DNA of 64,000 bases. It comes from a virus. The position numbers and the translations under genes were made by a program. Where the stretch lies: the IMG/VR virus record IMGVR_UViG_3300038299_000386, positions 2,373-66,372 of that record; one strand, given 5' to 3'. The notes beneath the pieces were generated by a model. The model searched no databases. It was given only the letters and a program-made list of their open reading frames with translations, and had not been told where the DNA came from. Positions 1 through 63,706 of the stretch are shown here, in pieces (within the stretch, counting starts at the first letter, position 1; the number at the start of each line of letters is the position of its first letter).

Positions 1-1392
1 GAGGACTGTTGCAGCATCGTTCAAAACAGATGATTGAACGATTCCGGTTTCCCGGTCCGGGTTGTTGACGTTGAGTAAGGTTGCATTCTCAAAGGCGATT
101 TCGTTTTCGAGAGCTTCTTTTTCTGCGTCGCTGGCAGTTTCCCTTACTACGGACAATTCGACGTTTTCATACGGCAAAATCAAGTCAAAGTCTTCTATTG
201 GTGGAAGTTCACCTTCATTGTCTACTCTCTCCCGGCCAAAAAGGAACTCGCCCCTGGTTCTCCCCAGTTGATCGAGTCTTTGTAGAAATTCTTCAGCCTG
301 TTCTTCGGTTCTGAAGGTCATAAGAGGGGTTTCTTCGTACCCATCTTCAGTTGTATAGGCTGCGGCAACGTGGTATCGGGCCAATTCCTCGGACACATTT
401 GCAAATCGCCCTTTTCCGGGTCCTTTAGTTATCTCAGTACCCCATCCGGTTAAGCCTGAAACTGTTTTCTTGGAGAGGTTGGGGTTTGTGCCCGACTCGT
501 AAAACTCCGCATCACCACTATCAAGAACATTTTCAACCAAAGGCCAACTCGATTCTATCGCATTCAAGTGTAAATACAAGTCTGTGTCTGCGGCAATGGC
601 CGAATTATCAACTACAGATTGTCTTTTTATGATTTCGTCGATATTAAGTTGGTCCAATTCATTGAATTTGTCAGCAATCATCGAATCAACAACTTCTTGT
701 TGTGATTTTGGCGGCATGTAAAACTCGTCATCCTCTCCGATAATTTCAATATTAAATTTGTCAAAGTCGCTGTTCATGATTACTTGATCAATTCTTCTAT
801 CTATTGGTATTCCGTCTTGATAAGTGTGTTTGGCTGACGTAGCGCCACGCCTCAAAGCAAGTCCTTCAAAAATGAACCTTTCCTCGTCTGTCAAATCATC
901 TTGGGTCAAAGTGCCTCCTTGAATTTGGGCGATTTTGAATTTTAGTTCATTGAGTCGGCCCGAGTTGTTCAAAACTTCAATTGGCCTACCGTTCTTGTCG
1001 TAGTATTGGGTTCTTCTCTTTTGGACTCCCTGCGCCTCTCTTAGCAAGCCTCCAGCCATTACTGGGGCAGTCCCAATCAATTCTGCTTGGCCGATCATGC
1101 GCATGAATTCATTTCTTTGTTGCTTCTCGTCAGACATCTTAGAATATGTATCGAGCCAGTCTTTCCTTGCCTCTCGTTTTGTTTTGTCATAGGACCTTTG
1201 GCCAACATATACTCCAGAGCCGCCGACCCAATTGACAACTCTTGCATTATTTCCCCTTTTTCTTAGGTGTTGGGCGTATCTTTGAGCGATAATTTTGGAC
1301 GTGCGGCTATCAATTTGCCGACCATTCAAATCGCGCTTGAATGAGCCGGCAAAAAAGTAAGGTCTACGGCTAAATTTGCGTATATTCTTCAT
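1..1392 (-). CDS. Tagged cargo protein, N-terminal basic tag domain; 3' end outside window (absent from ORF track)
   Basis: Manual translation of the 5' part from ATG 1392 (ATGA overlap with upstream stop): MKNIRKFSRRPYFF...IAQRYAQHLRKRGNNARVVNWVGGSGVYVGQRSYDK... Confidence 0.85.
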   Translation of the reverse strand, partial: MKNIRKFSRRPYFFAGSFKRDLNGRQIDSRTSKIIAQRYAQHLRKRGNNARVVNWVGGSGVYVGQRSYDKTKREARKDWLDTYSKMSDEKQQRNEFMRMIGQAELIGTAPVMAGGLLREAQGVQKRRTQYYDKNGRPIEVLNNSGRLNELKFKIAQIQGGTLTQDDLTDEERFIFEGLALRRGATSAKHTYQDGIPIDRRIDQVIMNSDFDKFNIEIIGEDDEFYMPPKSQQEVVDSMIADKFNELDQLNIDEIIKRQSVVDNSAIAADTDLYLHLNAIESSWPLVENVLDSGDAEFYESGTNPNLSKKTVSGLTGWGTEITKGPGKGRFANVSEELARYHVAAAYTTEDGYEETPLMTFRTEEQAEEFLQRLDQLGRTRGEFLFGRERVDNEGELPPIEDFDLILPYENVELSVVRETASDAEKEALENEIAFENATLLNVNNPDRETGIVQSSVLNDAATVL

Positions 1393-2789
1393 AAATCATC
1401 AATCCTTCTAAATGGGTCTGGTTTCTTTGTTATTTCTCTGTACGGAACAATGTCTTTCAAATCATTTTCCTTCAAGTAATCCATTACGGTTTCGTCAATT
1501 TCTCTTGTTTCGAGTTCTGCAGATTGAGCAGAATTTTTCGCATCGATCAAAAGCCCGTCTAAATATGAAATTGACTGTGCATAGGTAAAATCATCAACTC
1601 CATCAAGATTCCTTATCAGTCTAAGCCACTCATCATAACGAGGGTTCTGACTTTGGCCCCAAGCATGCGGGAATTGCAGGTTGTCATAAGGGAACCATGA
1701 CCCCGCATAGGGGTCTGGTTCAAGGTTCAAACCATCGTCAATCCAACTAGGATTATCGTTCAAAATGGTTCTTCCGGCTATTGAGTAGGCTTCAACATAA
1801 CCGGGGTTGGCATTAGCGCAATGAGGGCATCGAAGTAGGTGCTTCTTGGCTTTGTGCGCCACTTCCCGAAGGATGTCCTCAATGATTTTTTCATCGTATG
1901 GCCAGTTCCGTGTATTGGGTTGCCCAAAGTTTGATGACAGGGTTTGAACTTGTTGTTGGTTCAGAGTTGGCTCTTGGTCGCCGCAGAAATAATGGAGATT
2001 GCCATGATTGCCTCTTGTCCGATAATTGAGTTCGCCCTTTGCCGTGCTTATTACCACCGAATCATCTTCGGAACCTTCAGGAACCGTCTGTCGGATTAGG
2101 TATGTTTGTGGGTCATAGTAACTGGCGTGCAATGTTTCAGAAGGCAGTTCACCGTCTTCCGAATAGGCAATAATTGGGTAAAGGTCGCCCATTGCGTCAA
2201 TGTATGGTCCACGATCTAAAAAGCGATGCATCGTGTCTTCAATAGGAACAAGCTTGTCGCCGTAAAGTTCGGATATAGTGTCGAGATAATCTTTAACAGA
2301 TTGCTGATTAAGATTTTTAGCTTCACCTTGGAGTTGGCCTGGGTATAGAATGACTCGCTCTGAACCTAAAGTCCTCTCCTGCACATCGGCAAGGTCTTGC
2401 ACATCGGCAAGGTCTGAGTATAACTCGTTTTTTTTCAATGGTGGGCCCCATGAAAAATTTGCTGTCCCTAAAGGCCCACGCCACAAATCATCAATTATCC
2501 TCGCTGGAATCTTCCTTACGAAAAATGGGTCTTTTTGAGGGAATCCTTTCCTTTTTTCATCTAATGGCAAATCCTCGACGCCATCAAATCTTCCTTTTCT
2601 TCTGTTGTAGCTTGGTGAAAAGAGATTTACAAATATTGGGTTACTGGGCCTGTATTTGACAGTCCTTACGTTTAATCCAAACCTTCTCAAAGCCTGTGCC
2701 TTTTGTTGTGCGTGATTCAAATTTCGATGGTAAATACGGGCATCGCCCACATATTTGTTCCCATTGATGTTTCGCACTCGAAGATCCAT
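1389..2789 (-). CDS. Tagged cargo protein (N-terminal tag; acidic body with CPHC)
   Basis: 466 aa; RVRNINGNKY...AQQKAQALRRFGLNVRTV; SYNRR linker. Confidence 0.85.
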   Translation of the reverse strand: MDLRVRNINGNKYVGDARIYHRNLNHAQQKAQALRRFGLNVRTVKYRPSNPIFVNLFSPSYNRRKGRFDGVEDLPLDEKRKGFPQKDPFFVRKIPARIIDDLWRGPLGTANFSWGPPLKKNELYSDLADVQDLADVQERTLGSERVILYPGQLQGEAKNLNQQSVKDYLDTISELYGDKLVPIEDTMHRFLDRGPYIDAMGDLYPIIAYSEDGELPSETLHASYYDPQTYLIRQTVPEGSEDDSVVISTAKGELNYRTRGNHGNLHYFCGDQEPTLNQQQVQTLSSNFGQPNTRNWPYDEKIIEDILREVAHKAKKHLLRCPHCANANPGYVEAYSIAGRTILNDNPSWIDDGLNLEPDPYAGSWFPYDNLQFPHAWGQSQNPRYDEWLRLIRNLDGVDDFTYAQSISYLDGLLIDAKNSAQSAELETREIDETVMDYLKENDLKDIVPYREITKKPDPFRRIDDL

Positions 2790-2798: not shown

Positions 2799-3728
2799 TC
2801 AAGCATTGTCTAATTGGAAGTCTGCCCACCCGGTTGCTATTTCTCCGGATTTGACTTCTTGAAACCCTGGCTTGGGTTTTGAACGTTGTTTCTGCATCCT
2901 TGAACCAATCTCGCCATCTGCGAATTGCCAGTAAACAGGGTTTTCGTTCTCGAAGACCATGTAGAGTTTAATTCCTTTTAGATTTTCCAAATTTGGGGTG
3001 TTTCTTCCAAGCATTACCAAAGCCAAACGTTGCATCATGTTCTTTGAAGCCTCATTATTTTGGTATTTAGCGTCCCCAACCGCTCCTGTAGCCAAAAGCC
3101 ATTGATTGAAGGTTGCTTTACTTGCTGAAGTCGGTAAACTGTTCAAAACATCAACTAATTCTTCACCATCTACAAATCTTGCATCGGTAATCTCCATCGC
3201 ATCTGGTTTCTTAGATCCAATCAAAGCCATACCGGTCTTCGAAGAGAAATCATCCTTGTAAGTCTGCATCAATTGAGATAATGCTTGCATTTCTTTGATG
3301 TCTGCAGACAGAGATTGAACCGGTACTGACTCGGGCATTCCCGGCATTTTGATGTCGTCAACACCCAGCAAAGGGCCCCACTTGAGGCCTCCAAGGATCT
3401 GTGCTCCGGTAGTAATCTTCCTCTTTTTAGGAATGCTGGGCATCCCGTTTTCTTCGAGGACTTTCTTTGTCGCTTCAACTGATTGCTTCGAAACACCACT
3501 TACCCCGCCGGCGACATATATTGCCGTCCAGCCAGAACCATTTACAACCCTGGCACGTAGTCCTTGATTCCTCAAAGTCAAAGCTCTTTGCCGTGCGAGA
3601 TTGTTTCTTTGCTCATAAGTGTAGAGTTCTTTGACAGAACCATCTTCGGCGATCTCTGCTGCTCGCAATGATGAACTTAGGCCGTAATCTTGGCCGGAAA
3701 ACCGCCGAGTTCTACCTGGCCCTCTCAT
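2799..3728 (-). CDS. Tagged cargo protein (N-terminal tag)
   Basis: 309 aa; RRFSGQDY...ARQRALTLRNQGLRARVVNGSGWTAIYV. Confidence 0.85.
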   Translation of the reverse strand: MRGPGRTRRFSGQDYGLSSSLRAAEIAEDGSVKELYTYEQRNNLARQRALTLRNQGLRARVVNGSGWTAIYVAGGVSGVSKQSVEATKKVLEENGMPSIPKKRKITTGAQILGGLKWGPLLGVDDIKMPGMPESVPVQSLSADIKEMQALSQLMQTYKDDFSSKTGMALIGSKKPDAMEITDARFVDGEELVDVLNSLPTSASKATFNQWLLATGAVGDAKYQNNEASKNMMQRLALVMLGRNTPNLENLKGIKLYMVFENENPVYWQFADGEIGSRMQKQRSKPKPGFQEVKSGEIATGWADFQLDNA

Positions 3729-9180: not shown

Positions 9181-10017
9181 TTACTGACGCTTCCGTGCGT
9201 CTTTCAATGCCCTGTCGTAAATGATGGCTCCAACGGTCGAGGGCACCACCATGTCTGGTTGCCAACCCTGTCCGTGTGAGGTTGGGTCGTAGTCTTTTGT
9301 TACCGGTGCAACCATGGTCGATGGCGAGAGTCTCGCCCTGGATGAGTTATCCCAATATACGCTCAAGCCACTGGGCTGTCGCATTTCTTTGCCTTGATGG
9401 TCGTTGATTCCTCCCCAGCCCACCTCTCTCATCGTCATGTAAGCGTTTATCGAATCAATGGCGTCTTCGTTTTTCTCAGCGTACTTCGAATTAAGTCGCA
9501 TGTCCGATTTGGTTGGTTTCTGTGATGGCCAATTTAGTTGGTCCTCTTTGGTTCCCCAGTGGGCTGTGAATGCTTTTTCTGCTTTGTTGAATTTTTGTCT
9601 CATTTCCGAGAAGGCATTATTCCGCCCCGCTCGCCAATTTTTGAGTTGCCCTTCACGACGTTTGTTCCGTGAAAGAACATCTGCAGACCATTCTTTAGGG
9701 CGATCCAATTCCTTTGCAACACCCTCATCAAAACCTGTGCCGTTGAACCTTGAATCCCACGAATACTTCTCCTTTGGTCGTAGGTAAAGCCCCCATCGCT
9801 GTCGACCGAGGATTGTGTCTGCCGGCAAAGGAAGTACGCGAGCATAAAATCCATTTTCTCTTGCACGTGCAGCCAATTTTGTGAGTTGGTTAGATTCTGG
9901 AATATTTCGCCTCTGGTTTTGATACACCATTCCGTCATCATGACGAACGGGCTTTCTATGGCTTATTCCAAAAAGTCGGAATTGTTGGCCTTCTATTTTC
10001 TTCCATCCTGAAGTCAT
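9181..10017 (-). CDS. Tagged cargo protein (N-terminal tag, FRLFG subfamily)
   Basis: 278 aa; QFRLFG...LAARARENGFYARVLP...RWGLYLRPK; tag similar to that of 58978..59718. Confidence 0.85.
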   Translation of the reverse strand: MTSGWKKIEGQQFRLFGISHRKPVRHDDGMVYQNQRRNIPESNQLTKLAARARENGFYARVLPLPADTILGRQRWGLYLRPKEKYSWDSRFNGTGFDEGVAKELDRPKEWSADVLSRNKRREGQLKNWRAGRNNAFSEMRQKFNKAEKAFTAHWGTKEDQLNWPSQKPTKSDMRLNSKYAEKNEDAIDSINAYMTMREVGWGGINDHQGKEMRQPSGLSVYWDNSSRARLSPSTMVAPVTKDYDPTSHGQGWQPDMVVPSTVGAIIYDRALKDARKRQ

Positions 10018-10035: not shown

Positions 10036-10081
10036 TTTTGATATGAAGCAACCGCAAGGAACAAAGTTAGACGCACAGTTT
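10036..10081 (-). promoter_or_regulatory. Conserved upstream element AAACTGTGC plus TGCGGTTGCTTCATATCAAAA
   Basis: Second copy of the 9114-9159 element; motif 56 nt from ATG 10017. Confidence 0.7.
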
Positions 10082-11195: not shown

Positions 11196-11344
11196 CAGCA
11201 CACCTCGCAAGGGCATTCTTCGGGGTGATCCTCGAGCATGACTTTGTCTTGTAGCCAAAGAATCCAGTGGGGTTTGCACATCATTGCATAACTTTCAGTA
11301 TCAGGGTGTATTTTTTTCTGACAGCTTACTATCTGGCAAATCAT
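11195..11344 (-). CDS. Small Cys/His-rich (Zn-finger-like) protein, 49 aa
   Basis: MICQIVSC...CKPH...HPEECPCEVC; GAGGTGA RBS; translational coupling downstream. Confidence 0.6.
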   Translation of the reverse strand: MICQIVSCQKKIHPDTESYAMMCKPHWILWLQDKVMLEDHPEECPCEVC

Positions 11345-44266: not shown

Positions 44267-44270
44267 ATTT

Positions 44271-51853: not shown

Positions 51854-51855
51854 CT

Positions 51856-52509
51856 TCACCACCCCGTAGTAGGATCTCCGTCAAAATCTGCCGCTGAACC
51901 GAAGAAACCTGCAGCACAGCCAATAGCACCGCCAAGAAGCGGTCCGCCGAATATGCCGATTCCTGCGGTTAATGGTGATGTAGAAAGTCCCAAGGCCAGA
52001 CCTGTTGCGGCGCCGGCTGTAGCTCCAGCAGCACAGCCCGCGCCATCTGAAAGCAAACCTTCGTTTGGCGGGCCGTAATTGCCAAAACCATACGCTTGTG
52101 GGCTTCCGTAATCGACATAATCTTCAGGTAAATCGTTTGATGAAATATCGGGCTGGCCGTCTCCATCAAGGTCAATCATAACGGGGTCATTGGATAGGCC
52201 AAATAAATTCGTTTGAACAGCAACAAGACCGAGAATCAGGACCATTATTGTCAAAGGGAATCCGAAGCCGGTAAAAACGCCGCCCTGTTCACCGTCTTCG
52301 TCCGAACCAAGTAAAATTGCAATAAAGATGCTAATGCCTATGATCGCTACGATTCCAACCGTGCTCCATTCCGTGAAAGCCCAACTGGCAATGTCAATTT
52401 CAAGGAGACGAAAAAGGGCAATGACGCCAATCAGCAGAAGCCCAAAGACGACGATTCCGCCACCGAACACCAATTCGTCGAGTTCTAAATCATCATCGTC
52501 TTGCGCCAC
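51856..52509 (-). CDS. 3-TM protein with DxDxDG loop and glycine-zipper C-terminus
   Basis: DLDGDGQPD; GAGCAAGATAGAATGLALG...GGAIGCAAG; GGTGA RBS. Confidence 0.8.
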   Translation of the reverse strand: MAQDDDDLELDELVFGGGIVVFGLLLIGVIALFRLLEIDIASWAFTEWSTVGIVAIIGISIFIAILLGSDEDGEQGGVFTGFGFPLTIMVLILGLVAVQTNLFGLSNDPVMIDLDGDGQPDISSNDLPEDYVDYGSPQAYGFGNYGPPNEGLLSDGAGCAAGATAGAATGLALGLSTSPLTAGIGIFGGPLLGGAIGCAAGFFGSAADFDGDPTTGW

Positions 52510-54758: not shown

Positions 54759-56437
54759 CGACGCACCTCACTCATGTAAGTTCGCCCTGGTCTTGGACCG
54801 GTTCCGCGGTTCAAAAATTGATTGATAGTCATCCCTTGTTTTGCTGCTTCTTCAGTAAGTATTCTGTTTGCCTCTTGGAGTTTGACTTGCATTTCGAAAG
54901 GCAATGTAACTTCTTGAGTTTCTTCGTTATACATCACATTTTCGTTAGCAATGTTTTGCATGAAATTCATTGCATCATTTAGGCTCATTTGTTCAGCCCG
55001 TTCTAACATTGTGACCCTCATTTTCATTTTTTCAATATCTTCTTTCGGGATGAAACGGTTGGCATACACTTCATGCACGTCGCTTTGCCTAATTGATTGC
55101 TGGGCGGTTCCGCGCTTTCGAGCGTTTAGAAGTTGCTCCATAGCTTGAAATTGATAAAAGGCGAAATCGGGCATCAAACCGGATTTTTCTTGGTCGATTG
55201 TGATTGACATGTCTGAAGGTCCCTCTCTCTCCCGATACACTTTGCCAGCGTTGGGTCCGATCCTTTTCATGTAAAAATCTCCAGGTTTGCCGGATGAATC
55301 CATGATGATTCCGTCAAGATTTGGTACTTCGACGCTTTCTCCATGAACTCGAACTCTCTTGTTGTATCGCCTTCGCTCGTAGGCCTTTTTGATTGACTCA
55401 AGGGAGATGACGTCCATACTTCCATCTCTCATGGCATTTAGCCAAGAATCCGTTATCTTGCGGTCAATCTTTGCTTCCACAGTTGCCCCGCCTATTCCGG
55501 GGAACGTGATCATTACTTGATCGACCTTGTCAAGAGGCTCTACGCGAATCTTTGGTTCTTCAGTTACTGAAGAGGGGTCGATATAACTCTCCCATTCGGT
55601 GTAAATAAGGGGTGACTCGGACATTAGAGGATACTTTATCGAAGCGAGAAGTGAATGTTCGGACATGCCATTGCTCCTCAAATACAATACCAATGATTCT
55701 TGGACTGCTTGGTCAATAGAATCTAACCAAGTTGAGTAAGCCTGACTAATGATGCTTTGCGGCTTGTTTATTTCTGCAATGAGTTCTTCATCAGTCATGC
55801 TTCTGTATTCCAAGAGTAGCGGATTGTCTGATGATTGTATGAATGATTTTGTGCTTTGAAACGCCTTATTCCTAACTTGCCCCTGTAATCGAGAAATTAC
55901 GGTCACACCATCCTGGTATTGATAACTGTAAATCTCGGCCCATTGTTCTTCGGTGAGGTTGCTTTTCCCTAATTCAAATCCTTGCATATTCATATTTTGC
56001 ATGGATTGCTTGCCCAATTCGGCAAGTTCTTGGCTATGCAGGTCGATTTGGTCGGTGAACTCTTTTATCTCTTTAATTTGTTCGCGAGCTATCGCCTTTT
56101 GATTCTCGTTCAGATTTGGCGCCAATTCCACTACCCGCTTTTTCGTCATACGGACAAATTCTTGAGGGAATGCTTTTGTCAATTCCTTGTTGCTGTTGAG
56201 AATCGCCCCTAATGCAACAGGGAATACCTCTGTTCGCATTGGATCTGTCTCGGGAATCGGACGATTATATCTCCGGCGAACAAAAAGAGAACTGGAGTTA
56301 GCATTCTGTATCACTCTTGCGTTCCACCCATTTTTTCTTGCTAAGTCGGCGAACCCTTGCAACTTTCGTGTTGCTGTCTTGGGCGCATTTAATGCCCTGT
56401 TGTAAGTCTTCTTCTCAAATCGTCGTGTAGGCTTCAT
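54755..56437 (-). CDS. Tagged cargo protein (N-terminal tag)
   Basis: RRFEKKTY...ADLARKNGWNARVIQ; RRYNR and RRYNK linkers. Confidence 0.9.
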   Translation of the reverse strand: MKPTRRFEKKTYNRALNAPKTATRKLQGFADLARKNGWNARVIQNANSSSLFVRRRYNRPIPETDPMRTEVFPVALGAILNSNKELTKAFPQEFVRMTKKRVVELAPNLNENQKAIAREQIKEIKEFTDQIDLHSQELAELGKQSMQNMNMQGFELGKSNLTEEQWAEIYSYQYQDGVTVISRLQGQVRNKAFQSTKSFIQSSDNPLLLEYRSMTDEELIAEINKPQSIISQAYSTWLDSIDQAVQESLVLYLRSNGMSEHSLLASIKYPLMSESPLIYTEWESYIDPSSVTEEPKIRVEPLDKVDQVMITFPGIGGATVEAKIDRKITDSWLNAMRDGSMDVISLESIKKAYERRRYNKRVRVHGESVEVPNLDGIIMDSSGKPGDFYMKRIGPNAGKVYREREGPSDMSITIDQEKSGLMPDFAFYQFQAMEQLLNARKRGTAQQSIRQSDVHEVYANRFIPKEDIEKMKMRVTMLERAEQMSLNDAMNFMQNIANENVMYNEETQEVTLPFEMQVKLQEANRILTEEAAKQGMTINQFLNRGTGPRPGRTYMSEVRR

Positions 56438-56450: not shown

Positions 56451-57416
56451 TTACTTGTATTTGGATTTGCGTGGTTTCACTTTCGGCCTTCTCAGCAGCC
56501 AAAGCGCCTTTGGATTAGCAGATGACGGGTAAACTTCGTTGTCCTTTGAAACGCGTAAGGATTGGACGAGTGCAGTTGTTTTCTCTTCGGTTTGATCCAA
56601 AGCCCAATTGACACCATCTTTGATTCCAACGTCCAATACGTTTCGGCGTACTAATTTGGCGCCGACAAATCCACCTGCTACGGCGAGAGGAACCCAGGGC
56701 ATTGCTGCAAGACCTGCTGAAGTAAGGGCGATGCCTCCAACGGCACCGGTGGTTGCCCCAGCAATCTCCAATGAGTTGTATCGCAGAACCTCTCTACCGG
56801 GAACGGGCAATTTGTAGTCTTCGACCGCAGCCTCATATTTCGAGGCTTTCAATTTCTCACGTTTGATTTCAAGCTCTTCCTCGGTTTCCTTGTCCTTCTT
56901 TTCCTGTTTAGCAAATGCTACTGCAGATTCTCGGTTTTTTGAACTAAGTTTTTCTGCAATTATTTGTGCCTCAGTCATCGATTTACCTTTCACTAATGCT
57001 TGGTCCCTGTAATCGATGAAGTCCTCGACCTGCTCGAGATCTCTTTTGTCGCCCTTTGAACGAGAGCGACGCCTAAAGATACCCCTTCGTGGACCGGAAT
57101 TTTTGATTCTCCCCGAGGATTCATATTCTTCAACCAGGCTGAGTATTGTTCTTTTCCTCTTCTTAGGATAAGCTCTCGGCTGGATAGAAAGGTGTAGATC
57201 GCTGGTGCTCATCCTAACGCTCTGTGGCCGATGATAGTATAATTGGTAACCTACAAGTCTTTTATTGCCCTTAACGGTCTTTTCAACAGGGATGACTCTG
57301 GCTTTCAGGCCATTTGCACGAGACATCTTTGCCGCCAATTGTGCTTTTTCTTTGGTTTGAAGTTCACCAATGGGCGTGTACAGGCGGTTGTCGAACTTGC
57401 GTGAACCCCGCCTCAT
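56451..57416 (-). CDS. Tagged cargo protein (N-terminal tag, glycine-rich hydrophobic hairpin)
   Basis: RKFDNRLY...AAKMSRANGLKARVIP...GYQLYY; AGATTGAVGGIAL...VAGGFVGA; AAAGTGTGC 57 nt upstream. Confidence 0.88.
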   Translation of the reverse strand: MRRGSRKFDNRLYTPIGELQTKEKAQLAAKMSRANGLKARVIPVEKTVKGNKRLVGYQLYYHRPQSVRMSTSDLHLSIQPRAYPKKRKRTILSLVEEYESSGRIKNSGPRRGIFRRRSRSKGDKRDLEQVEDFIDYRDQALVKGKSMTEAQIIAEKLSSKNRESAVAFAKQEKKDKETEEELEIKREKLKASKYEAAVEDYKLPVPGREVLRYNSLEIAGATTGAVGGIALTSAGLAAMPWVPLAVAGGFVGAKLVRRNVLDVGIKDGVNWALDQTEEKTTALVQSLRVSKDNEVYPSSANPKALWLLRRPKVKPRKSKYK

Positions 57417-57480: not shown

Positions 57481-58974
57481 TCAATCAATATTCCATATCG
57501 CCGAATCTGTTGGTTCTCCGTCGTAAAATGCTTGAAGGAAGTTTCCAGCGAGTTGCTGAATTCCGGCTGCCTTATCTTTCATGAAAGATGGATCTGTTGA
57601 TTCGTTACCTTCACCAATCAATCCATACGGAATAACTTCGGCAAGTGGTTCGTCTGTAATCAAATCAAATCCTGTGTCGAGGAAGTCTGTTGCTACTCCC
57701 GACAACCCGGTTGCCCCAGTATCTGTTCGGTATCTTACCAAATTAGGCGCTTTGAGCCAACTTACGCCCTGTAAGTTGAGAAAATCATAACCGATGCCCC
57801 TTTCGAACATTCGCTTAGTTTCTTCTGCAAGCAAAGGAAACATTCGCATGATCTCCGAAGGAGGCCGGCCTCCCATTGGGTCGCGCCTCACCCACGCTTC
57901 CCTTCCGCCGAACAATAGCGTTAAGCCTCTATTTGTTTTATCCAATTCCTCTTGGTCAGGAAAAACCTCATCACCATACTCCAGTGGCTCTGGTTGAGCA
58001 TATCTGGTCAAGGCATTTCCAAACCGTGTATCACTGCTTGAAGTTTTTAGTAGAGCTTGTCGGATAAATTCATCCACTTGGTATTCAGGAAGATAACTGT
58101 CAATCTGCGGCAACCAGCGACGTAGCATCCTTGCCCTCGCATCCAAATCACCCGCCAAAAACACGTTGTCAGTCACTAACATTTCAGAATCAAAACCGGC
58201 TTCTATCGGCCTATCTTTTGCGATTAGGTCGTTTTCGAACAAAATATATCGGTCTTCGGAATCCAAATCGTCAGATATTGCATAGACCATTTGTTGCCCA
58301 TCAACATTCAACCTTCCAGTGACGTCTCGGGCTAAGAATTTTCCTTGCCATGTGGGATTCATTGTTTCAAGTTCATCATACATATCCTCATTTTGTGCAT
58401 GCCATAATTCTCCATTTGATTTTCGTTCCGATCCGTACCACTTACCAATGGCTGAATCAGAATTTACATCAAAACCCAAATCCTTCAAATGCTTTTTAGC
58501 GATGTTGCTCGGCATCAAACCAACTCCCATAAGCCCAATATTTTCATTTTTCAAAACCCCATCCTGAGTGGAGTCTTCTTTGTCGACGAAACCGATTGCA
58601 ACCCATCTTAGGTCGTCGGATTTTTTGTAAGATGTGTTTTTCCAATCGTAAAAATCCTGTAAGACCTTGAAAACTCGGGGTGTGAAATTTCTTTCATCCT
58701 CAAGTCCAGCATTTGAGGGGTTAGGCATCATCCTTTCAGAGAACCAAAAACCGCCGGCAGCACCTGGCAACGCCTTTTCCACATCATCAGTCATTTTCCG
58801 ACGATCATATCTTTTGCTCCCGACGTAAATCCTCGAATTGCCGTCTGAAGTTCGTACGACCATCGAGTTGTAGCCCCTTTGACGTATTGCCTCAGCGAGG
58901 AACCTGGCTTTCGGAACGCTAATTTTGTGGGGCGAACCTACATAACGTCCGCTTTTGGTGTTTCTGTAAAACAA
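57481..58974 (-). CDS. Tagged cargo protein (N-terminal tag)
   Basis: YRNTKSGRYVG...AEAIRQRGYNSMVV...RIYVGSKRYDRR. Confidence 0.88.
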   Translation of the reverse strand: MFYRNTKSGRYVGSPHKISVPKARFLAEAIRQRGYNSMVVRTSDGNSRIYVGSKRYDRRKMTDDVEKALPGAAGGFWFSERMMPNPSNAGLEDERNFTPRVFKVLQDFYDWKNTSYKKSDDLRWVAIGFVDKEDSTQDGVLKNENIGLMGVGLMPSNIAKKHLKDLGFDVNSDSAIGKWYGSERKSNGELWHAQNEDMYDELETMNPTWQGKFLARDVTGRLNVDGQQMVYAISDDLDSEDRYILFENDLIAKDRPIEAGFDSEMLVTDNVFLAGDLDARARMLRRWLPQIDSYLPEYQVDEFIRQALLKTSSSDTRFGNALTRYAQPEPLEYGDEVFPDQEELDKTNRGLTLLFGGREAWVRRDPMGGRPPSEIMRMFPLLAEETKRMFERGIGYDFLNLQGVSWLKAPNLVRYRTDTGATGLSGVATDFLDTGFDLITDEPLAEVIPYGLIGEGNESTDPSFMKDKAAGIQQLAGNFLQAFYDGEPTDSAIWNID

Positions 58975-58977: not shown

Positions 58978-59718
58978 TCAACCTCGCTTTCTGTAGAATA
59001 TTCGGTGTGATTTCACAGTGTTGGCGGAGTTGCCTCCATCAAAAGTTGGCCCCAGCGTCTTTTTTGGCATCGATATTTGAGTGTCCCATATATCGAATCT
59101 TCTCATCCCATTCGGGATTAAGTTATGCTTCGACCACGTAATTCCGCCGTCATCAATAGCTTGTTCAAGTATTTCTGAACCCTGTTCGGGGCGAAGTGAG
59201 AACTTAACCCTGGTTGGCCTCCCCATGCTCGGGCGGTATAACTTCGAATTCAATTCCAATTCGCGCTGATCAAACGGCTCTGCTTTGAATTTGAAAGGAG
59301 TCGATTTAGATTTCAACCAACTATCATTGGTTAATTTTGCAGTCCCAATTACTTGGTAGTGGCCCTTATTGTCATCAAAGTGTGCCTGTGCCCAAGAGTA
59401 GTCAATTTTTTCATGCTTCTTAGGATGGATGAAAAGTCCATAACGCGGGGTTTGGTGCAGCCTATCTCTCGCCATAGGCACTATTCTTGCGTAATATGAA
59501 CCGTTTTGTTCTCCACCCATGTAGGGCGCCCGCATAAGGGCGGCGACTGCCCTCAATCTCTCCTTGTCAGATGAAACTCCGAAGAGTCTGAATGATCTCT
59601 GGCCGTCTTGAGTCTTCATCTTGCGAAAAAGAACATCGTCAGGCCAATTTCTCGTCCTTATGCTTCCAGCATTTCTGCTTTCATAGGGTCCAACAAAATT
59701 TGGGCTTTGGCGAGTCAT
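58978..59718 (-). CDS. Tagged cargo protein (FRLFG subfamily tag)
   Basis: SFRLFG...YYARIVPM...RYGLFIHPK. Confidence 0.85.
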   Translation of the reverse strand: MTRQSPNFVGPYESRNAGSIRTRNWPDDVLFRKMKTQDGQRSFRLFGVSSDKERLRAVAALMRAPYMGGEQNGSYYARIVPMARDRLHQTPRYGLFIHPKKHEKIDYSWAQAHFDDNKGHYQVIGTAKLTNDSWLKSKSTPFKFKAEPFDQRELELNSKLYRPSMGRPTRVKFSLRPEQGSEILEQAIDDGGITWSKHNLIPNGMRRFDIWDTQISMPKKTLGPTFDGGNSANTVKSHRIFYRKRG

Positions 59719-61400
59719 CTCACTCGCCTCATGGGGCCGACATAAATTCTTGAGCCAGCGTTCGTGCGAATCACTCTAACGTTGCGACCTGTTTGCCTAC
59801 GGAGTTGTTGCGCCCATGCTCGAGCCTGGGGGTGGGTGAATTTTCTTGGAGTGCCCCTGAACTGTTTGCCTTTTATCGTCCTTTGAAGCGTCGGCACGGC
59901 CTTTGAAGTAAGTGGTAGCACCATATTAGGCAGATTGTATGTTCTTGCCTTGTAGGAGCCTCTGTCGTATTCCCTGTCGCTTGGATAGGTGTAAGATGCA
60001 CCACGTTCCTTGGCGACGTCTTGGATCACACTTAATGTCTCAAAATCACTTCTATCTTGTGCCTTTTTCAAACCTTCTTCGTTAATCTTAACGTCGATGG
60101 AAGCAACTAATTCATCTCGTATTTTGCCAGACTGGGTGAAAATTTCTTCTAATGAGTTGATCGCTTCAAAGCCACCTAGGGCCATTAAATTGTCTCGCAG
60201 TGATTTTTCTTCGACGAATAGTTCCGAAGTGCCTTCTCTTTCCGACTTTTGCCTCAGCCAGTCCTCTACGGCCAAAACATCCGGTCCGAGCAACTTCCAT
60301 TCTGCAACCCAACCCAGACCTGCCACTGGTAAAACCTTGTAAGGAAGCGGAACCGTCTCGGTTTCGAAATTGTCAGACCATAGTTTCCCTGCAGCCGTAA
60401 AGTCCCATTCTTCAGGGCCGTTCGGTAAAAGGTCGATTTCGGGGCCACCATACCATGAGTCGTGGATGTAGTCTGTGTTCCCTGGAACAGTCAAAGCCGA
60501 TTCCGGGTTTTCAGAACCACGAAAAAAGCGGCCAGAAGACCTTAATTGTGTAATCTCACTGCCGCTTGGTACGATTTGTCCTTTAGCAACCATCACCAAT
60601 TCTTCTATAAATTGACTATCTCCTTGATATGGCGCCATAGCAACGCCGGCTCCAATCGCAAGCCTTTCATTTTCATCTCGAATAAAAGCACCCCCAAACA
60701 ACCCAGGGTTTGTTTGAGATGGATCAATGTCATCAACTGAATCGGTAAGTGACTTGCCTTTTTCTCTATTGAAAGGTCGAGAGTTGAATGCACCCATCCT
60801 TGCAGTAGTTCTAATTTCAGCGATTGATTCTTCAATATCACGATCTACATCGATTGCTTTTTCAGTTTCAGTCACGGATTCTTTCCTGAAATATTTATTG
60901 GGTTCTTCTTGCTCTTTTATTCGATTCATTAGATGCATCATTTCGTGAACCACAACATCTTCAAGAATAAACCCCTTATTGGCGGCTGTTTCAGGGTCAA
61001 TTAGCACCTGCTTACCAATATTCTGCCCTGCTATGTCTGGAGGGAGTTTTTGTATCCGTAAGTCAATTCCAAATTCCTCAAATTTTTTCCTTTCTTCGGG
61101 GCTGAAATAGACCTCAATCGTTTCAAGGACGTTCTCCCGGCCTTTTTCAAAATCCGCCGTTGAGATTTCTGCGTTGTTTGATACCTTCATCCTGTTGTAG
61201 ATCCGTGGCGATTTTACTTCATCTGATATAATCATCTTAGCAATCTGTTGAGAGTTATGCGTTTTGTTCCGAATCATTACTGACGCCCCTTCAGCAACCT
61301 TTCTTTGATACTTGTTTCCATTAAGAAGCATGTCATCAAGTATTTGAGCAAGTTCGACTGAACCTTGCTTACCCATTGCAACTTGCTTCAAATCGGCCAT
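59715..61400 (-). CDS. HExxH zinc-metallopeptidase-domain protein with C-terminal tag
   Basis: VVVHEMMHL followed by EESIAE; domain bounded by RIYNR and RPFNR; tag RTIKGKQF...AQQLRRQTGRNVRVI...RIYVG. Confidence 0.75.
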   Translation of the reverse strand: MADLKQVAMGKQGSVELAQILDDMLLNGNKYQRKVAEGASVMIRNKTHNSQQIAKMIISDEVKSPRIYNRMKVSNNAEISTADFEKGRENVLETIEVYFSPEERKKFEEFGIDLRIQKLPPDIAGQNIGKQVLIDPETAANKGFILEDVVVHEMMHLMNRIKEQEEPNKYFRKESVTETEKAIDVDRDIEESIAEIRTTARMGAFNSRPFNREKGKSLTDSVDDIDPSQTNPGLFGGAFIRDENERLAIGAGVAMAPYQGDSQFIEELVMVAKGQIVPSGSEITQLRSSGRFFRGSENPESALTVPGNTDYIHDSWYGGPEIDLLPNGPEEWDFTAAGKLWSDNFETETVPLPYKVLPVAGLGWVAEWKLLGPDVLAVEDWLRQKSEREGTSELFVEEKSLRDNLMALGGFEAINSLEEIFTQSGKIRDELVASIDVKINEEGLKKAQDRSDFETLSVIQDVAKERGASYTYPSDREYDRGSYKARTYNLPNMVLPLTSKAVPTLQRTIKGKQFRGTPRKFTHPQARAWAQQLRRQTGRNVRVIRTNAGSRIYVGPMRRVR

Positions 61401-61401
61401 T

Positions 61402-61836
61402 TTACCAAACCCTTGCGCAATCATCGACCACTACTGGGTCTTCGGTTTCAATCCAAATGCTCGCCCCGCAACTCAATGGATCGCAAGGCTTGTAAACAAT
61501 TTTTGAATTTCCTTCAACCTTGACGTCAGAAGCCCTTATGCTCCCTTTTGAGGTTTGGATTGTTATTGGTGGCTTGACATTGTCGGGATTTTTCTTATTC
61601 CATCCAATCATGTGCCTGTTAACGTGGATTTGTTTTTTGCTTGGCCTACCTTTTCGGGTGAGTCTGCAACTCCGATAAACCGCATATTTACCATTAGCGT
61701 GGCGTATTACTCGGGCATTTATCCCAAACGCTCGATGTCGCTTGGCGACGGTGTCGGCTCTCCTTTTAGTCAAGCTATGATCCGACAAAATATGCCTTTT
61801 CTTGTTTGAGCCGATGTAACGAATTTGTCGAACCAT
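61402..61836 (-). CDS. Tag domain fused to a conserved marine-phage hypothetical domain
   Basis: AKRHRAFGINARVIRHANGKYAVY; KQIHVNRH...PPITI...PLSCGASIWIET. Confidence 0.85.
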   Translation of the reverse strand: MVRQIRYIGSNKKRHILSDHSLTKRRADTVAKRHRAFGINARVIRHANGKYAVYRSCRLTRKGRPSKKQIHVNRHMIGWNKKNPDNVKPPITIQTSKGSIRASDVKVEGNSKIVYKPCDPLSCGASIWIETEDPVVVDDCARVW

Positions 61837-61840: not shown

Positions 61841-63706
61841 TCAAATCTCCGTGTAGTCTACAACGTGCTTATTTCGGGACATATCCCAAAGAACGTCGGC
61901 ATAACGAATCTGTGTGTTCCCGTCAATCTCGCCATTTTCTTGGTCTGCACGGCCGATGACATAATCGCTCTGTGCGCCGAGTGATTTGATTGTACCCAAG
62001 GCATCCTCGAAGGATGGTATCCAGGTCGAAACGGGTTCTGTTGTGATGGAATCATAAATTCTGAAGTGCCAGCCTTTCAGAATAGCCTCTATTGCTGATG
62101 CGTTTGCGCCCTCCTCTTGAGCCAATTTAGCCATTGTCATCTTTGCTTGGGCGTTGGAGGCACCGAAGTCAAATCCAAGGTCTGCGAGGTTATCCCTGCG
62201 GGAATCTTGGACTGAGGATTGCGGTAAAAGCCAATTGGAAAGGTATTGTCGTGGTAATCTGCTGGGGTCATTGACCTTTTCACCGTCCAAATATAGTTGG
62301 AATTCACCCGCTTCAAGGCGGTAATCCTCGGCTCTCCCGTCGACTTCCCAACCTGCCCAATCGCCTGTTTCTGTAATTGTCATATATCCTCCGATGACGG
62401 CTACACCAGGTGCGAGTTGATCGTGCTCTTGGTAACCTTCCTGTGAAAAAGTCTCATAGGTTGACAACTTCTTACTTGCATTAAGAGCCTTCCTTAGAGC
62501 ATCAAAATACTCTGCTTCATTGTTTTCATCTGAGTAATACTTTCCACCAAGAAGCTCGCCAACCGAATTCACAATCAAAAATGCTGGCTTCTTATCAAAT
62601 CGAATACTTTCTCCGAATCTTCTCGGATTGAAGGTCCAGAATCCAGAAGGTGCGCCGTCCGGCAGTTTTGGTTGGTTTGCAATCCCCAATCGTGGATTCA
62701 AAGTTGAATCAGATAATACGTCGCGGTCGAATGTCTTCCCGCCCCATTGAAGTCGTTCATTACCAAGTTGGTCCCCGAAAAATGCATTATCCATTTCGTC
62801 AGAAAATATGCCCTTTAGGATGTCATCGATGGAATCTCCTTGTTCTTCGGACTTTTGATCCCTTGCGGCAACAGCGAAAACCTCGCCGGCTTCTGCTTTA
62901 GTTTGCCTTACATTTTCCGGCAACAATAAGCCGCTTCCTACTTCAAAGGTTTCAGACATCATGCGGTCAATCATGGCAAATATCTCATCGTCGGTCGTGT
63001 CTTGTTCACTGCCTCCGTCGATGCCCATAAGTTCGTAGAAGTCTATTTCATCTGCTGACTTCATGATTTGTCCGCCCATTCCATCAGATACTTCTGTGAA
63101 ATCAAAGTCCAATCCCCCTCCGGATTCTGCTTTGAATTCCTCTCGAGATTTGGCTTTGTAGCCTAAATCTTCGCTCATATCGGTCGAAGCGAACAGATCA
63201 TCAAGCATTGCTGCAGCGGTGAACTGCTGTTCTTGCTTTATCGCCTCATTAACCACTGCGGCTTGTGGATCTACAAGTGCTTGGAATGCGTTTATGGCAT
63301 CAGTCCCGCCAAGCACCTGAATGTTGGACTTCCAATCCAGGTCGTTTCTATACCCCGGTTGCCTTCTCATCCAATCAACAAGTGCAGGTTGATCAATTCC
63401 TCCGGGGCGTTCAAATGTTCTCCAAGGAAAACGAATAGCGTTGTAGGTGCGGTTGACATTGCGGAAGTTTCGGTTTCTTTTTCCGAAGTAAATTGCTGTC
63501 TTGTTGATTGATTTTAATTTGACAGTTCTTGCGTTTATCCCGATTTTACGCATTCTGGATGCAAGCACTTGGGCATCGGCTTTGTTTGTAGCGAGGCCTG
63601 AAAAATTGTATCGGGAGCCGTCAAACTTCCTTGTTCCGCTAAATCTTCTCCTCTGAAGAGTTCGCATGTCATTAGCACTTACTATCGGGTATCTGTTTTT
63701 ACTCAT
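61841..63706 (-). CDS. Tagged cargo protein (N-terminal tag, highly acidic body)
   Basis: RKFDGSRY...ASRMRKIGINARTV...AIYFG; RTYN linker; ATG 63706 after GAGGCGA. Confidence 0.9.
   Translation of the reverse strand: MSKNRYPIVSANDMRTLQRRRFSGTRKFDGSRYNFSGLATNKADAQVLASRMRKIGINARTVKLKSINKTAIYFGKRNRNFRNVNRTYNAIRFPWRTFERPGGIDQPALVDWMRRQPGYRNDLDWKSNIQVLGGTDAINAFQALVDPQAAVVNEAIKQEQQFTAAAMLDDLFASTDMSEDLGYKAKSREEFKAESGGGLDFDFTEVSDGMGGQIMKSADEIDFYELMGIDGGSEQDTTDDEIFAMIDRMMSETFEVGSGLLLPENVRQTKAEAGEVFAVAARDQKSEEQGDSIDDILKGIFSDEMDNAFFGDQLGNERLQWGGKTFDRDVLSDSTLNPRLGIANQPKLPDGAPSGFWTFNPRRFGESIRFDKKPAFLIVNSVGELLGGKYYSDENNEAEYFDALRKALNASKKLSTYETFSQEGYQEHDQLAPGVAVIGGYMTITETGDWAGWEVDGRAEDYRLEAGEFQLYLDGEKVNDPSRLPRQYLSNWLLPQSSVQDSRRDNLADLGFDFGASNAQAKMTMAKLAQEEGANASAIEAILKGWHFRIYDSITTEPVSTWIPSFEDALGTIKSLGAQSDYVIGRADQENGEIDGNTQIRYADVLWDMSRNKHVVDYTEI

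What the first reader, a model, noticed from the sequence alone, without database searches (positions are those of the whole stretch)
1..63706. One ~50-aa basic 'tag' domain in 22 genes, mostly fused to unrelated cargo: candidate cargo-addressing system
Seen: the pattern R-x-[FI]-x-G-x-x-[FY]-x(n)-A-x-x-x-A-x-x-[LA]R-x-x-G-x-x-ARV[IV]-x(n)-G-x-x-[IVL]Y occurs 23 times in 22 genes. N-terminal in the ORFs with left coordinate 1, 1389, 2799, 9181, 46643, 54755, 56451, 57481, 58978, 61402, 61841; C-terminal or near it in 10080, 27167, 39211 (plus an internal copy), 41211, 42857, 44271, 48109, 49844, 52635, 59715; alone in 37024. Partners include a DNA ligase, GP88-like, kinase-like and HExxH domains and many acidic ORFans. 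It is absent from signal-peptide proteins, polytopic membrane proteins and the small-gene 'early' region. Inference: a portable nucleic-acid-binding or particle-targeting tag that loads many enzymes and effectors onto the genome or virion core for co-delivery. I know of no description of such a system.
Basis: partly seen in the sequence, partly recalled or inferred. Interest (0 to 1): 0.95.

Follow-up and report, generated by a model that had tools for sequence, protein, structure and literature searches.

The report
Shared basic tag on viral proteins
About a third of the proteins of an unclassified 66-kb marine virus-like genome carry the same small, strongly basic domain on otherwise unrelated proteins, most likely a DNA-binding tether that keeps them on the viral chromosome.

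Summary
A profile built from any 22 copies finds the 23rd (E 3e-16 to 1e-4). No other reading frame in the window scores better than E 0.5. The full 66,372-bp record has a 24th copy and a degenerate 25th on a heliorhodopsin. The domain is about 55 aa, pI 10-12, net charge +5 to +15, and sits at either terminus. The cargo regions show no mutual similarity.

Two complete relatives carry 20 and 18 copies, including significant copies on the cytoplasmic N-terminus of their heliorhodopsins. 1,678 protein clusters in public data contain the domain. No Pfam, PHROGs, NCBIfam or PDB family covers it. The only recurring signal is a sub-threshold SPOR match (19 of 83).

The annotatable cargo acts on DNA: ligase, SNF2 helicase, methyltransferases and UmuD-like. 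The best reading is a nucleic-acid tether. Co-packaging into particles is plausible but untested. I judge it a new domain family and an unusual variant of known addressing or DNA-binding modules.

The parts
1192..1356 (-). tag copy, N-terminal in ORF 1..1392 (ORF continues into the record head; 740 aa in full)
   Evidence: leave-one-out E 7.7e-12
2616..2786 (-). tag copy, N-terminal in ORF 1389..2789
   Evidence: 3.5e-10
3501..3719 (-). tag copy with long insert after the first hairpin, N-terminal in ORF 2799..3728
   Evidence: 1.8e-6
9769..9957 (-). tag copy (long-loop subtype), N-terminal in ORF 9181..10017
   Evidence: 6.3e-9
10092..10262 (-). tag copy, C-terminal in ORF 10080..11279
   Evidence: 6.8e-13
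28172..28336 (+). tag copy near the C-terminus of the GP88-family protein 27167..28456
   Evidence: 1.1e-10; GP88 homologues in 269 GenBank phage records lack it
37177..37350 (+). tag copy in the 140-aa protein 37024..37446 (no other domain)
   Evidence: 8.3e-10
39268..39435 (-). tag copy, C-terminal in ORF 39211..41214
   Evidence: 1.1e-14
40447..40632 (-). internal tag copy (long-loop subtype) in ORF 39211..41214
   Evidence: 2.7e-6; conserved in orthologues
41415..41579 (-). tag copy near the C-terminus of ORF 41211..42890
   Evidence: 5.9e-6
42863..43030 (-). tag copy, C-terminal on the WGR + ATP-dependent DNA ligase 42857..44293
   Evidence: 1.5e-9; same end in both relatives
44406..44585 (-). 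tag copy in the C-terminal half of ORF 44271..44996
   Evidence: 2.5e-7
47714..47881 (-). tag copy, N-terminal in ORF 46643..47965
   Evidence: 3.1e-16
48112..48273 (-). tag copy, C-terminal in ORF 48109..49851
   Evidence: 1.9e-10
49853..50020 (-). tag copy, C-terminal in ORF 49844..51862, a single-pass membrane protein (TM 128-146; acidic S/T/P-rich N-terminus, basic stretch after the TM)
   Evidence: 6.9e-14
52641..52805 (-). tag copy, C-terminal in ORF 52635..54758
   Evidence: 9e-15
56267..56437 (-). tag copy, N-terminal in ORF 54755..56437
   Evidence: 1.9e-11
57222..57413 (-). tag copy, N-terminal in ORF 56451..57416, which has a hydrophobic hairpin near residue 229-270
   Evidence: 1.2e-11
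58810..58974 (-). tag copy, N-terminal in ORF 57481..58974
   Evidence: 2.8e-9
59416..59625 (-). divergent tag copy with an insertion between helix and strand, N-terminal in ORF 58978..59718
   Evidence: E 1.7 before inclusion; 1e-4 leave-one-out
59727..59894 (-). tag copy, C-terminal on the HExxH-motif protein 59715..61424
   Evidence: 4.8e-15
61660..61827 (-). tag copy, N-terminal in ORF 61402..61836
   Evidence: 2.4e-9; N-terminal in both relatives
63473..63643 (-). tag copy, N-terminal in ORF 61841..63727
   Evidence: 3e-13; N-terminal in both relatives
63717..63998 (-). 3' part of a heliorhodopsin gene that begins beyond the window end, in the record head. Its N-terminal extension looks tag-like but is not significant here (E 4.2). 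The orthologues in G306 and G307 carry significant tags.
25236..26588 (+). untagged P-loop (GDRGQGKS / LLEVYDEV) protein, the best conserved gene of the virus family. It was used to find relatives and is context, not part of the tag.

Best explanation
The tag is a small folded domain. From the sequence pattern I infer a beta-hairpin, an amphipathic helix and two beta-strands, a distant SPOR/RNP-like half-domain with Arg and Tyr on its strands. I propose it binds nucleic acid non-specifically, most likely the viral double-stranded DNA.

In this family of 63-73-kb marine virus-like genomes it has been fused to either end of about 20 unrelated proteins. These include DNA enzymes, fast-evolving proteins of unknown function, two membrane-anchored proteins and, in relatives, a heliorhodopsin. 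All of them would therefore be held on the viral chromosome, on the cytoplasmic or particle-interior side of the membrane.

The likely consequence is that they travel with the DNA into the particle and into the next cell.

Shown: the domain, its copy number, its charge, its position at protein termini, its cytoplasmic side, its conservation across the family, and its absence from known libraries.

Inferred: the fold, the DNA binding (my odds about 0.6) and the co-packaging (about 0.35).
For: 1. The domain is real and recurrent. 23 of 23 copies pass leave-one-out, with a clean gap to noise. The record holds 24 copies.
2. It is strongly basic: pI 10.0-12.0 and net +5 to +15 over about 56 aa. The proteome overall has D+E 13.5% against K+R 11.7%.
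3. It faces the cytoplasm.
   - None of the proteins with an N-terminal hydrophobic, signal-like segment or with three or more predicted TM segments carries a tag.
   - In ORF 49844 the tag follows the basic stretch after the single TM.
   - In G306 and G307 it sits on the heliorhodopsin N-terminus (E 4e-11 and 9.8e-8). Passages of bioRxiv 2021.02.01.429150 call that terminus cytoplasmic.
   - Membrane proteins that already sit in the membrane still carry it. That fits a bridge to DNA better than a membrane-targeting role.
4. Every cargo that gets a functional name acts on DNA:
   - WGR + ATP-dependent ligase;
   - SNF2/ResIII helicase in G307;
   - PHROGs ligase, two DNA methyltransferase families and UmuD-like among 149 tag-bearing relatives.
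5. Outside this family the domain occurs alone (60 of the top 150 proteins are 100 aa or shorter) or as 2-3 tandem copies without cargo. That suits a binding domain with its own function, not a mere signal peptide.
6. It is a property of the whole system.
   - G306 has 20 copies and G307 has 18, both complete; G308, a half genome, has 8.
   - Metagenome loci show 13, 11 and 10 consecutive tagged ORFs.
   - Tagged genes form one co-directional block with the membrane, spike-like genes.
7. The tag is an add-on: GP88 homologues in 269 GenBank phage records align without it.
8. Tags outlast their cargo. 11 of 23 tagged genes have no BLAST orthologue in relatives whose ATPase-like protein is 64-65% identical. 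Several of their tags still find their best match in a gene of a relative; two of these I take, from gene order, to be positional counterparts.
Against: - No binding was measured and no structure could be predicted.
- The only known family with any signal, SPOR, binds peptidoglycan glycans, not DNA.
- That signal is weak. The best score in the record is 15.4 bits against a cut-off of 21. hhalign against four E. coli SPOR domains gave probability 1.9%.
- Only a handful of cargo proteins can be annotated at all. Most are ORFans, so 'all named cargo acts on DNA' rests on about 8 proteins.
- No over-represented DNA word was found that could serve as a specific site. This fits non-specific binding but is also what one expects if DNA is not the ligand.
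- No capsid, portal or terminase gene was recognised. The particle into which proteins would be packaged is therefore unknown.
- Tags do not evolve more slowly than cargo in clear orthologue pairs (23-61% against 25-59% identity).
Confidence: 0.42

Rival explanations
1. Docking domain for a viral protein partner. The tag binds one common hub, such as a matrix, scaffold or membrane-protein tail or the conserved P-loop protein, or tags bind each other in a lattice. Tagged proteins are recruited by protein-protein contacts and DNA is not the ligand.
For: - The tag sits at either terminus of unrelated cargo, like known addressing modules.
- It occurs on membrane proteins, including heliorhodopsin.
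- Several untagged viral membrane proteins are very acidic, with pI 4.1-4.8, and could offer a counter-charge.
- The domain looks like three quarters of a beta-alpha-beta-beta-alpha-beta fold, which could be completed by a partner (pattern; inference).
Against: - Stand-alone and tandem copies occur in other viral contexts that lack this family's proteins.
- The named cargo acts on DNA.
- No candidate hub was identified.
- The complex predictor was unavailable, so nothing was tested.
Confidence: 0.2
2. An ordinary accessory DNA-binding domain that works only inside the infected cell. It concentrates replication, repair, modification and takeover proteins on viral or host DNA, as a promiscuous domain in the manner of Bro-N or KilA-N. 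It has no role in particle loading.
For: The evidence for DNA binding is the same as in the best explanation. DNA ligase, helicase and methyltransferase cargo need DNA contact for their own chemistry.
Against: - Tags on a heliorhodopsin and on single-pass membrane proteins are hard to explain by enzymology.
- Tagged genes lie in the same long co-directional block as the spike-like membrane genes, not in the small-gene region.
- About a third of the genes of 80 codons or more carry the tag (23 of 68).
Confidence: 0.2
3. A true SPOR-type cell-wall module. The tag binds glycan strands or anionic wall polymers of a monoderm host, and it anchors ejected or lysis-related proteins in the wall.
For: - SPOR is the only recurring Pfam signal: 19 of 83 domain sequences at E <= 1, against 3 of 83 for the next family.
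- 4 of 149 relatives match at E <= 1e-3, best 3.5e-5.
- The heliorhodopsin points to a monoderm host.
Against: - No tagged protein has a signal peptide.
- The tag is on the cytoplasmic N-terminus of heliorhodopsin and on the positive-inside side of a single-pass protein.
- The match covers only SPOR model positions 13-50 of 76 and stays below the cut-off in this record.
- hhalign against E. coli SPOR domains is not significant.
- The cargo includes ligase and helicase.
Confidence: 0.05
4. RNA-binding module (RRM-like use of the sheet) that brings viral proteins to mRNA or ribosomes.
For: Basic and aromatic residues sit on predicted strands, as in RNP motifs (the RNP comparison is recalled). 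One weak dsrm hit occurred among 83 sequences.
Against: No cargo is RNA-related, and the named cargo acts on DNA. There is no significant match to any RNA-binding family.
Confidence: 0.08

Closest known systems
SPOR domain (Pfam PF05036; FtsN, DamX, DedD, RlpA, CwlC)
   Same: The order of elements is similar: strand, amphipathic helix with small residues, strand, turn, strand ending in '(V/I)Y(V)GP'-like residues. It is the only library family that recurs as a weak match.
   Different: - The tag is about 55 aa rather than about 76 and appears to lack the last helix and strand.
- It scores below Pfam's cut-off in this record.
- It is far more basic.
- It is cytoplasmic rather than periplasmic.
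- It is fused to DNA enzymes.
- hhalign against four E. coli SPOR domains is not significant.
Capsid targeting sequence of phage T4 internal proteins (PMC3012670 and PMC7697877, seen as search listing and abstract starts only)
   Same: One shared terminal element on unrelated proteins that are packed with the DNA and delivered to the next cell.
   Different: The T4 signal is a short N-terminal peptide that binds the scaffolding core and is cut off by the prohead protease (recalled). The tag is a folded 55-aa domain found at either end. No protease or scaffold was recognised, and packaging is unproven here.
Promiscuous DNA-binding domains of large DNA viruses and phages (Bro-N, KilA-N; recalled from Iyer, Koonin and Aravind 2002, not read here)
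   Same: One DNA-binding module present in many genes of a single viral genome, joined to variable partners.
   Different: There is no sequence relation: no Bro-N or KilA-N hit appeared in any Pfam scan. Those domains are N-terminal and mostly sit on regulators. Here the tag is on either end, on about a third of the genes and also on membrane proteins.
Co-injected protein sets such as the phage P1 Dar system, MuF-domain cargo fusions and encapsulin cargo-loading peptides (all recalled, not read here)
   Same: Enzymes such as methyltransferase-helicases are carried in the particle with the DNA, or an addressing module with swappable cargo is used.
   Different: Those systems address cargo through capsid or shell proteins. 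None uses a repeated basic domain, and none is known to me to cover a third of the proteome.
N-terminal fusions of heliorhodopsins (MORN repeats, zinc ribbons; bioRxiv 10.1101/2021.02.01.429150, passages read)
   Same: An extra domain sits on the cytoplasmic N-terminus of a heliorhodopsin.
   Different: That paper names MORN and zinc-ribbon fusions and ten further N-terminal extension variants. The variants are listed only in a supplement I could not open, so I cannot say whether this tag is among them.

Membership tests
SPOR (PF05036) | Score at or above Pfam's gathering cut-off (21 bits) | tested here: not met
   In the record, 2 of 24 copies match at all, at 15.4 and 14.7 bits. Among 83 domain-only sequences the best E is 0.0014. 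Among 149 full-length relatives 4 match at E <= 1e-3, best 3.5e-5. Their bit scores and positions were not shown, so a few relatives may pass.
SPOR (PF05036) | Complete beta-alpha-beta-beta-alpha-beta domain of about 70-76 residues | tested here: inconclusive
   Matches cover model positions 13/14 to 35/50 of 76. The tag profile has 55 positions. No structure could be predicted.
SPOR (PF05036) | Extracytoplasmic location, binding septal peptidoglycan | tested here: not met
   Tagged proteins have no signal peptide. The tag lies on the cytoplasmic side of membrane proteins. Binding itself is not testable here.
SPOR (PF05036) | Profile-profile similarity to bona fide SPOR domains | tested here: not met
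   hhalign of A3 against FtsN, DamX, DedD and RlpA C-termini gave probability 1.9% and P 0.026, in a shifted register. The SPOR alignment had only 4 sequences.
T4-type capsid targeting sequence | Short N-terminal peptide removed by a prohead protease | tested here: not met
   The tag is a 55-aa domain, C-terminal or internal in 12 of 23 copies. No prohead protease or scaffold was found by Pfam or PHROGs. Cleavage is not testable here.
Bro-N / KilA-N promiscuous viral DNA-binding domains | Sequence match to PF02498 or PF04383 | tested here: not met
   Neither family appears in any Pfam scan of tagged proteins or domain sequences.
Caudoviricetes (tailed phage) as the virus type | Recognisable terminase large subunit, portal and HK97-fold capsid protein | tested here: not met
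   No such family appeared at E <= 0.01 in Pfam or PHROGs for the large untagged proteins. The P-loop protein has no PDB sequence match. Fold-level tests were not possible.

The most novel reading that the evidence does not exclude
This is a genome-tethered delivery system in a capsid-gene-less, membrane-rich virus family. One folded DNA-binding address domain loads about 20 unrelated proteins onto the viral chromosome. The load includes DNA-modifying and repair enzymes, fast-evolving effectors, membrane anchors and a light-sensing heliorhodopsin. The chromosome itself then acts as the scaffold that links envelope, cargo and genome, and the whole toolkit enters the next cell with the DNA.
Probability: 0.25. 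Interest if true: 0.9.

Novelty: new variant of a known kind. Interest (0 to 1): 0.74.

Why it matters
If the tag tethers proteins to the viral chromosome, it gives a simple sequence rule for predicting which proteins of an otherwise unreadable virus family act on, or travel with, the genome. It would also be a compact natural module for attaching cargo to DNA.

The family itself has complete genomes of 63-66 kb and relatives on contigs up to about 73 kb. It has no recognisable capsid, portal or terminase gene, about 20 membrane proteins, two rhodopsin-type genes and a well conserved novel P-loop protein. It appears undescribed and is recurrent in marine data. The tag, the P-loop protein and a heliorhodopsin fused to the tag are concrete handles for studying it.

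The domain also defines a family of at least 1,678 protein clusters that no library names.

Tried and rejected
- **Junction motif.** I suspected an R-x-Y-N-R motif marking the tag-cargo boundary, as a possible cleavage site. Counting showed it is mostly the first strand of the domain itself: 10 inside tags, 4 within 25 aa, 6 elsewhere in tagged proteins. I dropped it.
- **Specific DNA site.** No enriched 8-12-mer was found apart from one poly(A) run.
- **Recent spread or homogenisation of tags within the genome.** The best partner of a G000 tag is a same-genome paralogue in only 5 of 24 cases. I rejected this.
- **Cargo paralogy.** There were no hits among tag-masked proteins. I rejected this.
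- **Tag in cellular genomes.** It matched in 1 of 5 genomes at E <= 0.01 and 1 of 301 Acidimicrobiia genomes at E <= 1e-4. Both are partial helix-strand matches, one in an M16-peptidase-like ORF and one in the little-finger region of a DinB-like polymerase. I treat these as chance or analogy.
- **Tag in GenBank phages.** tblastn with one copy found nothing. This is a low-sensitivity test.
- **IMG/VR relatives.** Searches via the 667-aa protein, P0021, P0165 and P0036 found none. The P-loop protein did find relatives.
- **PDB sequence searches.** The tag profiles and the P-loop profile gave nothing significant.
- **Atlas search among named clusters.** No usable hit.
- **Word-index protein search with A3.** It returned only 7 short proteins, none with names.
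- **Host.** The heliorhodopsin's pattern-found relatives are 21 Acidimicrobiia or Acidimicrobiales MAGs and one Ornithinimicrobium, at 41-47% identity. The method needs shared 8-mers, so archaeal relatives cannot be excluded. Shine-Dalgarno-like words are enriched upstream of genes: 16 of 68 against 3.4 +/- 1.6 at random positions. This argues for a prokaryotic host.
- **Literature.** Searches found no description of the domain or of the virus family. Supplements were closed. The supplementary table of bioRxiv 2021.02.01.429150 lists heliorhodopsin N-terminal variants and could bear on the heliorhodopsin fusion.

Full report
**What the window is.** The window is bases 2373-66372 of a 66,372-bp IMG/VR virus record that CheckV rates 100% complete. 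The record ends in a 150-base direct repeat, 149 of 150 identical. The genome is therefore circular or terminally redundant and about 66.2 kb long. G+C is 44-48% throughout, and no tRNA gene was found. Genes are tightly packed in long co-directional blocks. Shine-Dalgarno-like words are enriched upstream of starts, in 16 of 68 genes against 3.4 +/- 1.6 at random positions. This points to a prokaryotic host.

**The observation.** The literal pattern is too strict: the relaxed first motif is in 11 of 22 ORFs and ARV[IVL] in 13 of 22. A profile settles the matter.
- An HMM seeded with 11 copies was iterated over all 782 six-frame ORFs of 40 aa or more. It converges on 22 domains in 21 ORFs, at i-E 8e-19 to 7.5e-8.
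- The next best hit is at 0.52, and none lies in a wrong frame.
- The remaining copy (58978-59718) has an insertion between helix and strand. A profile of the other 22 finds it at E 1e-4.
- All 23 of 23 copies pass this leave-one-out test. Reversed sequences give at best E 0.42.
- A 24th copy lies in the record head, outside the window, on a DUF5754 protein. The profile found it at E 3.9e-10 without having been trained on it.

With tags masked, the 22 proteins show no BLASTP similarity to each other at E <= 0.01. The cargo is unrelated.

**The domain.** Alignment A1 has 55 match positions. One Ala is invariant and two Arg are nearly so. The consensus is R-x-(F/I)-x-G-x-x-(F/Y), a variable linker, K-x-x-A-x-x-x-A-x-x-x-R-x-x-G-x-x-A-R-V-(I/V), a turn, then G-x-x-(V/I)-Y. 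I read this as hairpin, amphipathic helix, strand, strand. The copies have pI 10.0-12.0 and net charge +5 to +15.

**Known families.**
- Pfam gives only sub-threshold SPOR matches. In the record 2 of 24 copies match, at 15.4 and 14.7 bits against a cut-off of 21 and over model positions 13-50 of 76.
- Of 83 domain-only sequences, 19 match SPOR at E <= 1 (best 0.0014), while the next family reaches 3 of 83.
- Of 149 full-length relatives, 4 match at E <= 1e-3, best 3.5e-5.
- PHROGs, NCBIfam, PDB sequences and the Atlas's named clusters give nothing.
- hhalign against the four E. coli SPOR domains is not significant, with probability 1.9%.

I therefore call the tag a new family with a possible distant SPOR/RNP-like ancestry, not a SPOR member.

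**Distribution.** A profile search of 1.84 billion representative proteins finds 1,678 at E <= 1e-3 and 29 at E <= 1e-10.
- Within the top 150 proteins, the domain is N-terminal 39 times, C-terminal 55 times and internal 18 times. It lies in proteins of 100 aa or fewer 60 times.
- Of the 86 top hits longer than 120 aa, 55 share cargo with this virus family. Of the 31 that do not, 10 carry two or three tandem tags.
- The Atlas places the stand-alone form in clusters labelled viral (Uroviricota where known), at score 0.91, which is a lead only.
- None of the looked-up clusters has a functional name.
- The tag was not found in GenBank phages by tblastn with one copy.
- It was not found in 300 of 301 sampled Acidimicrobiia genomes at E <= 1e-4. 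The single hit is a helix-strand match in the little-finger region of a DinB-like polymerase.

**The virus family.** The untagged P-loop protein 25236-26588 (GDRGQGKS, LLEVYDEV) has 20 relatives at 55-80% identity, eight of them on contigs of 59-73 kb. It has no Pfam, PHROGs or PDB match.
- Through this protein I reached IMG/VR records. G306 is 65,449 bp with terminal repeats, is 100% complete and has 20 tag matches. G307 is 63,413 bp, likewise complete, and has 18. G308 is 54% complete and has 8.
- Four metagenome loci found through a tagged protein show 13, 11, 10 and 2 consecutive tagged ORFs.
- By my gene calls, 23 of 68, 19 of 65 and 16 of 62 genes of 80 codons or more are tagged in the three complete genomes.

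**Orthologue map.**
- GP88, the ligase, and the 628-aa and 144-aa proteins keep the tag at the same end in all three genomes.
- The DUF5754 protein is tagged only in G000.
- 11 of 23 tagged G000 genes have no reciprocal best hit at E <= 1e-5, although the P-loop protein is 64-65% identical. For 13 of the 24 G000 tags the closest tag belongs to a non-orthologous gene of another genome. For two of these (G000_5171 with G306_31124, G000_1542 with G306_28928) I infer from gene order that they are positional counterparts.
- Where cargo orthology is clear, tag and cargo diverge alike, at 23-61% against 25-59% identity.

**Topology.** The genome encodes about 20 proteins with predicted TM segments. 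They include:
- a 975-aa protein with a signal-like start and four C-terminal TMs;
- a 1,693-aa acidic protein with four C-terminal TMs;
- a TSP3-repeat protein.

In the window, none of the proteins with a signal-like N-terminal hydrophobic segment or with three or more predicted TM segments carries a significant tag. Two tagged proteins do have TM segments. ORF 49844 has an acidic S/T/P-rich N-terminus, one TM, a basic stretch, a long domain and then the tag. ORF 56451 has the tag at its N-terminus and a hydrophobic hairpin near its C-terminus.

A heliorhodopsin gene (PF18761, E 5.8e-52) crosses the record ends. Its 127-aa N-terminal extension looks tag-like to the eye but is not significant, at E 4.2. 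In G306 and G307, however, the same ORFs (369 and 366 aa) hold the heliorhodopsin (E 2e-72 and 1e-72) and a significant N-terminal tag (E 4e-11 and 9.8e-8). Passages of bioRxiv 2021.02.01.429150 describe the heliorhodopsin N-terminus as cytoplasmic and report MORN and zinc-ribbon fusions there. The tag therefore faces the cytoplasm, or the interior of any particle that buds from that membrane.

**Cargo.**
- In the window: WGR + ATP-dependent DNA ligase, GP88, and an HExxH protein.
- In the head: DUF5754.
- In relatives: an SNF2/ResIII helicase, two TusA-domain proteins and DUF3860.
- Among the 149 tag-bearing proteins: PHROGs ligase, two families annotated as DNA methyltransferase, and UmuD-like.
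- GP88 homologues in 269 GenBank phage records align only to residues about 58-312 of the 429-aa protein. None covers 80% of it, so they lack the tag.

**Interpretation.** Five observations fit a non-specific nucleic-acid tether best:
- the charge;
- the cytoplasmic side;
- the DNA-acting cargo;
- the stand-alone and tandem forms;
- the presence on proteins already anchored in the membrane.

Three further observations make co-packaging with the genome a reasonable second step: about a third of the genes carry the tag, they sit in the same co-directional block as the spike-like membrane genes, and much of the cargo evolves fast. Nothing here tests that step, and the particle type is unknown. 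Rivals are a protein-hub docking domain, a purely intracellular DNA-binding accessory domain, a true SPOR-type wall binder, and an RNA binder. Their odds are given in the Rival explanations section.

**Limits.**
- No structure, complex prediction or earlier-findings look-up was available.
- Contexts of the stand-alone forms could not be fetched.
- Literature supplements were closed.
- Comparisons with the T4 targeting sequence rest on search listings.
- Comparisons with Bro-N/KilA-N, P1 Dar, MuF, encapsulins, SPOR residues and RNP motifs are recalled, not read.

Noticed in passing
window 63717-63998 (-) continuing in L002:2-1009 (-), i.e. across the ends of the record: A full heliorhodopsin gene (PF18761, E 5.8e-52) with a 127-aa N-terminal extension. 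Its pattern-found cellular relatives are 21 Acidimicrobiia or Acidimicrobiales MAGs and one Ornithinimicrobium, at 41-47% identity.
   Followed up: yes
window 28440-29351 (+): A second, divergent rhodopsin-like membrane protein directly after the GP88-tag gene. It has 8 predicted hydrophobic segments and matches Bac_rhodopsin at E 8.4e-7. It has an orthologue in G307 at 33% identity.
   Followed up: partly
record ends (G000 1-150 and 66223-66372; window 63851-64000): A 150-base terminal direct repeat with one mismatch (149 of 150), although the record is labelled 'linear'.
   Followed up: yes
window 25236-26588 (+): A P-loop protein (GDRGQGKS, LLEVYDEV) that is 55-80% identical across 20 relatives, eight of them on contigs of 59-73 kb. 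It has no Pfam, PHROGs or PDB sequence match and is a candidate hallmark gene of an undescribed virus family.
   Followed up: partly
window 4029-17098 (-): A block of large acidic membrane or surface proteins:
- 1,693 aa with 4 C-terminal TMs;
- 441 aa with bacterial TSP3 repeats, encoded partly by 66/132-base tandem repeats at 12025-12366;
- two 5-TM proteins;
- 975 aa with a signal-like start and 4 C-terminal TMs.
No capsid, portal or terminase gene was recognised anywhere.
   Followed up: partly
window 20688-20716: A 29-base poly(A) run in the region where the minus-strand and plus-strand gene blocks diverge. Shuffles give a mean of 0.02 matches to a 15-base A run.
   Followed up: no
window 19831-20577 (-); L042:15364-17796 and L048:343-2847 in relatives: A PAPS-reductase-family gene in the window, and TusA sulfur-carrier domains on tagged 810-834-aa proteins in G306 and G307. 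Together these hint at a sulfur-dependent nucleic-acid modification pathway.
   Followed up: no
L048:2811-5021 (+) in G307: An SNF2/ResIII helicase-like protein with an N-terminal tag. It has no detectable orthologue in the window's genome.
   Followed up: partly
window 24074-25111 (+): An acidic protein with a Gln-rich coiled-coil stretch (CAACAG repeats at 24659-24742) and a C-terminal Cys-x2-Cys pair motif. It is 59-73% identical in relatives, among the best conserved genes.
   Followed up: no
alignment A5 (P0004, P0005, P0158, P0159 against window ORFs 59715-61424 and 39211-41214): In relatives the HExxH domain and the 39211-like protein are fused into a single protein, whereas the window has them as two separate tagged genes. 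This is evidence of domain shuffling among tagged genes.
   Followed up: partly
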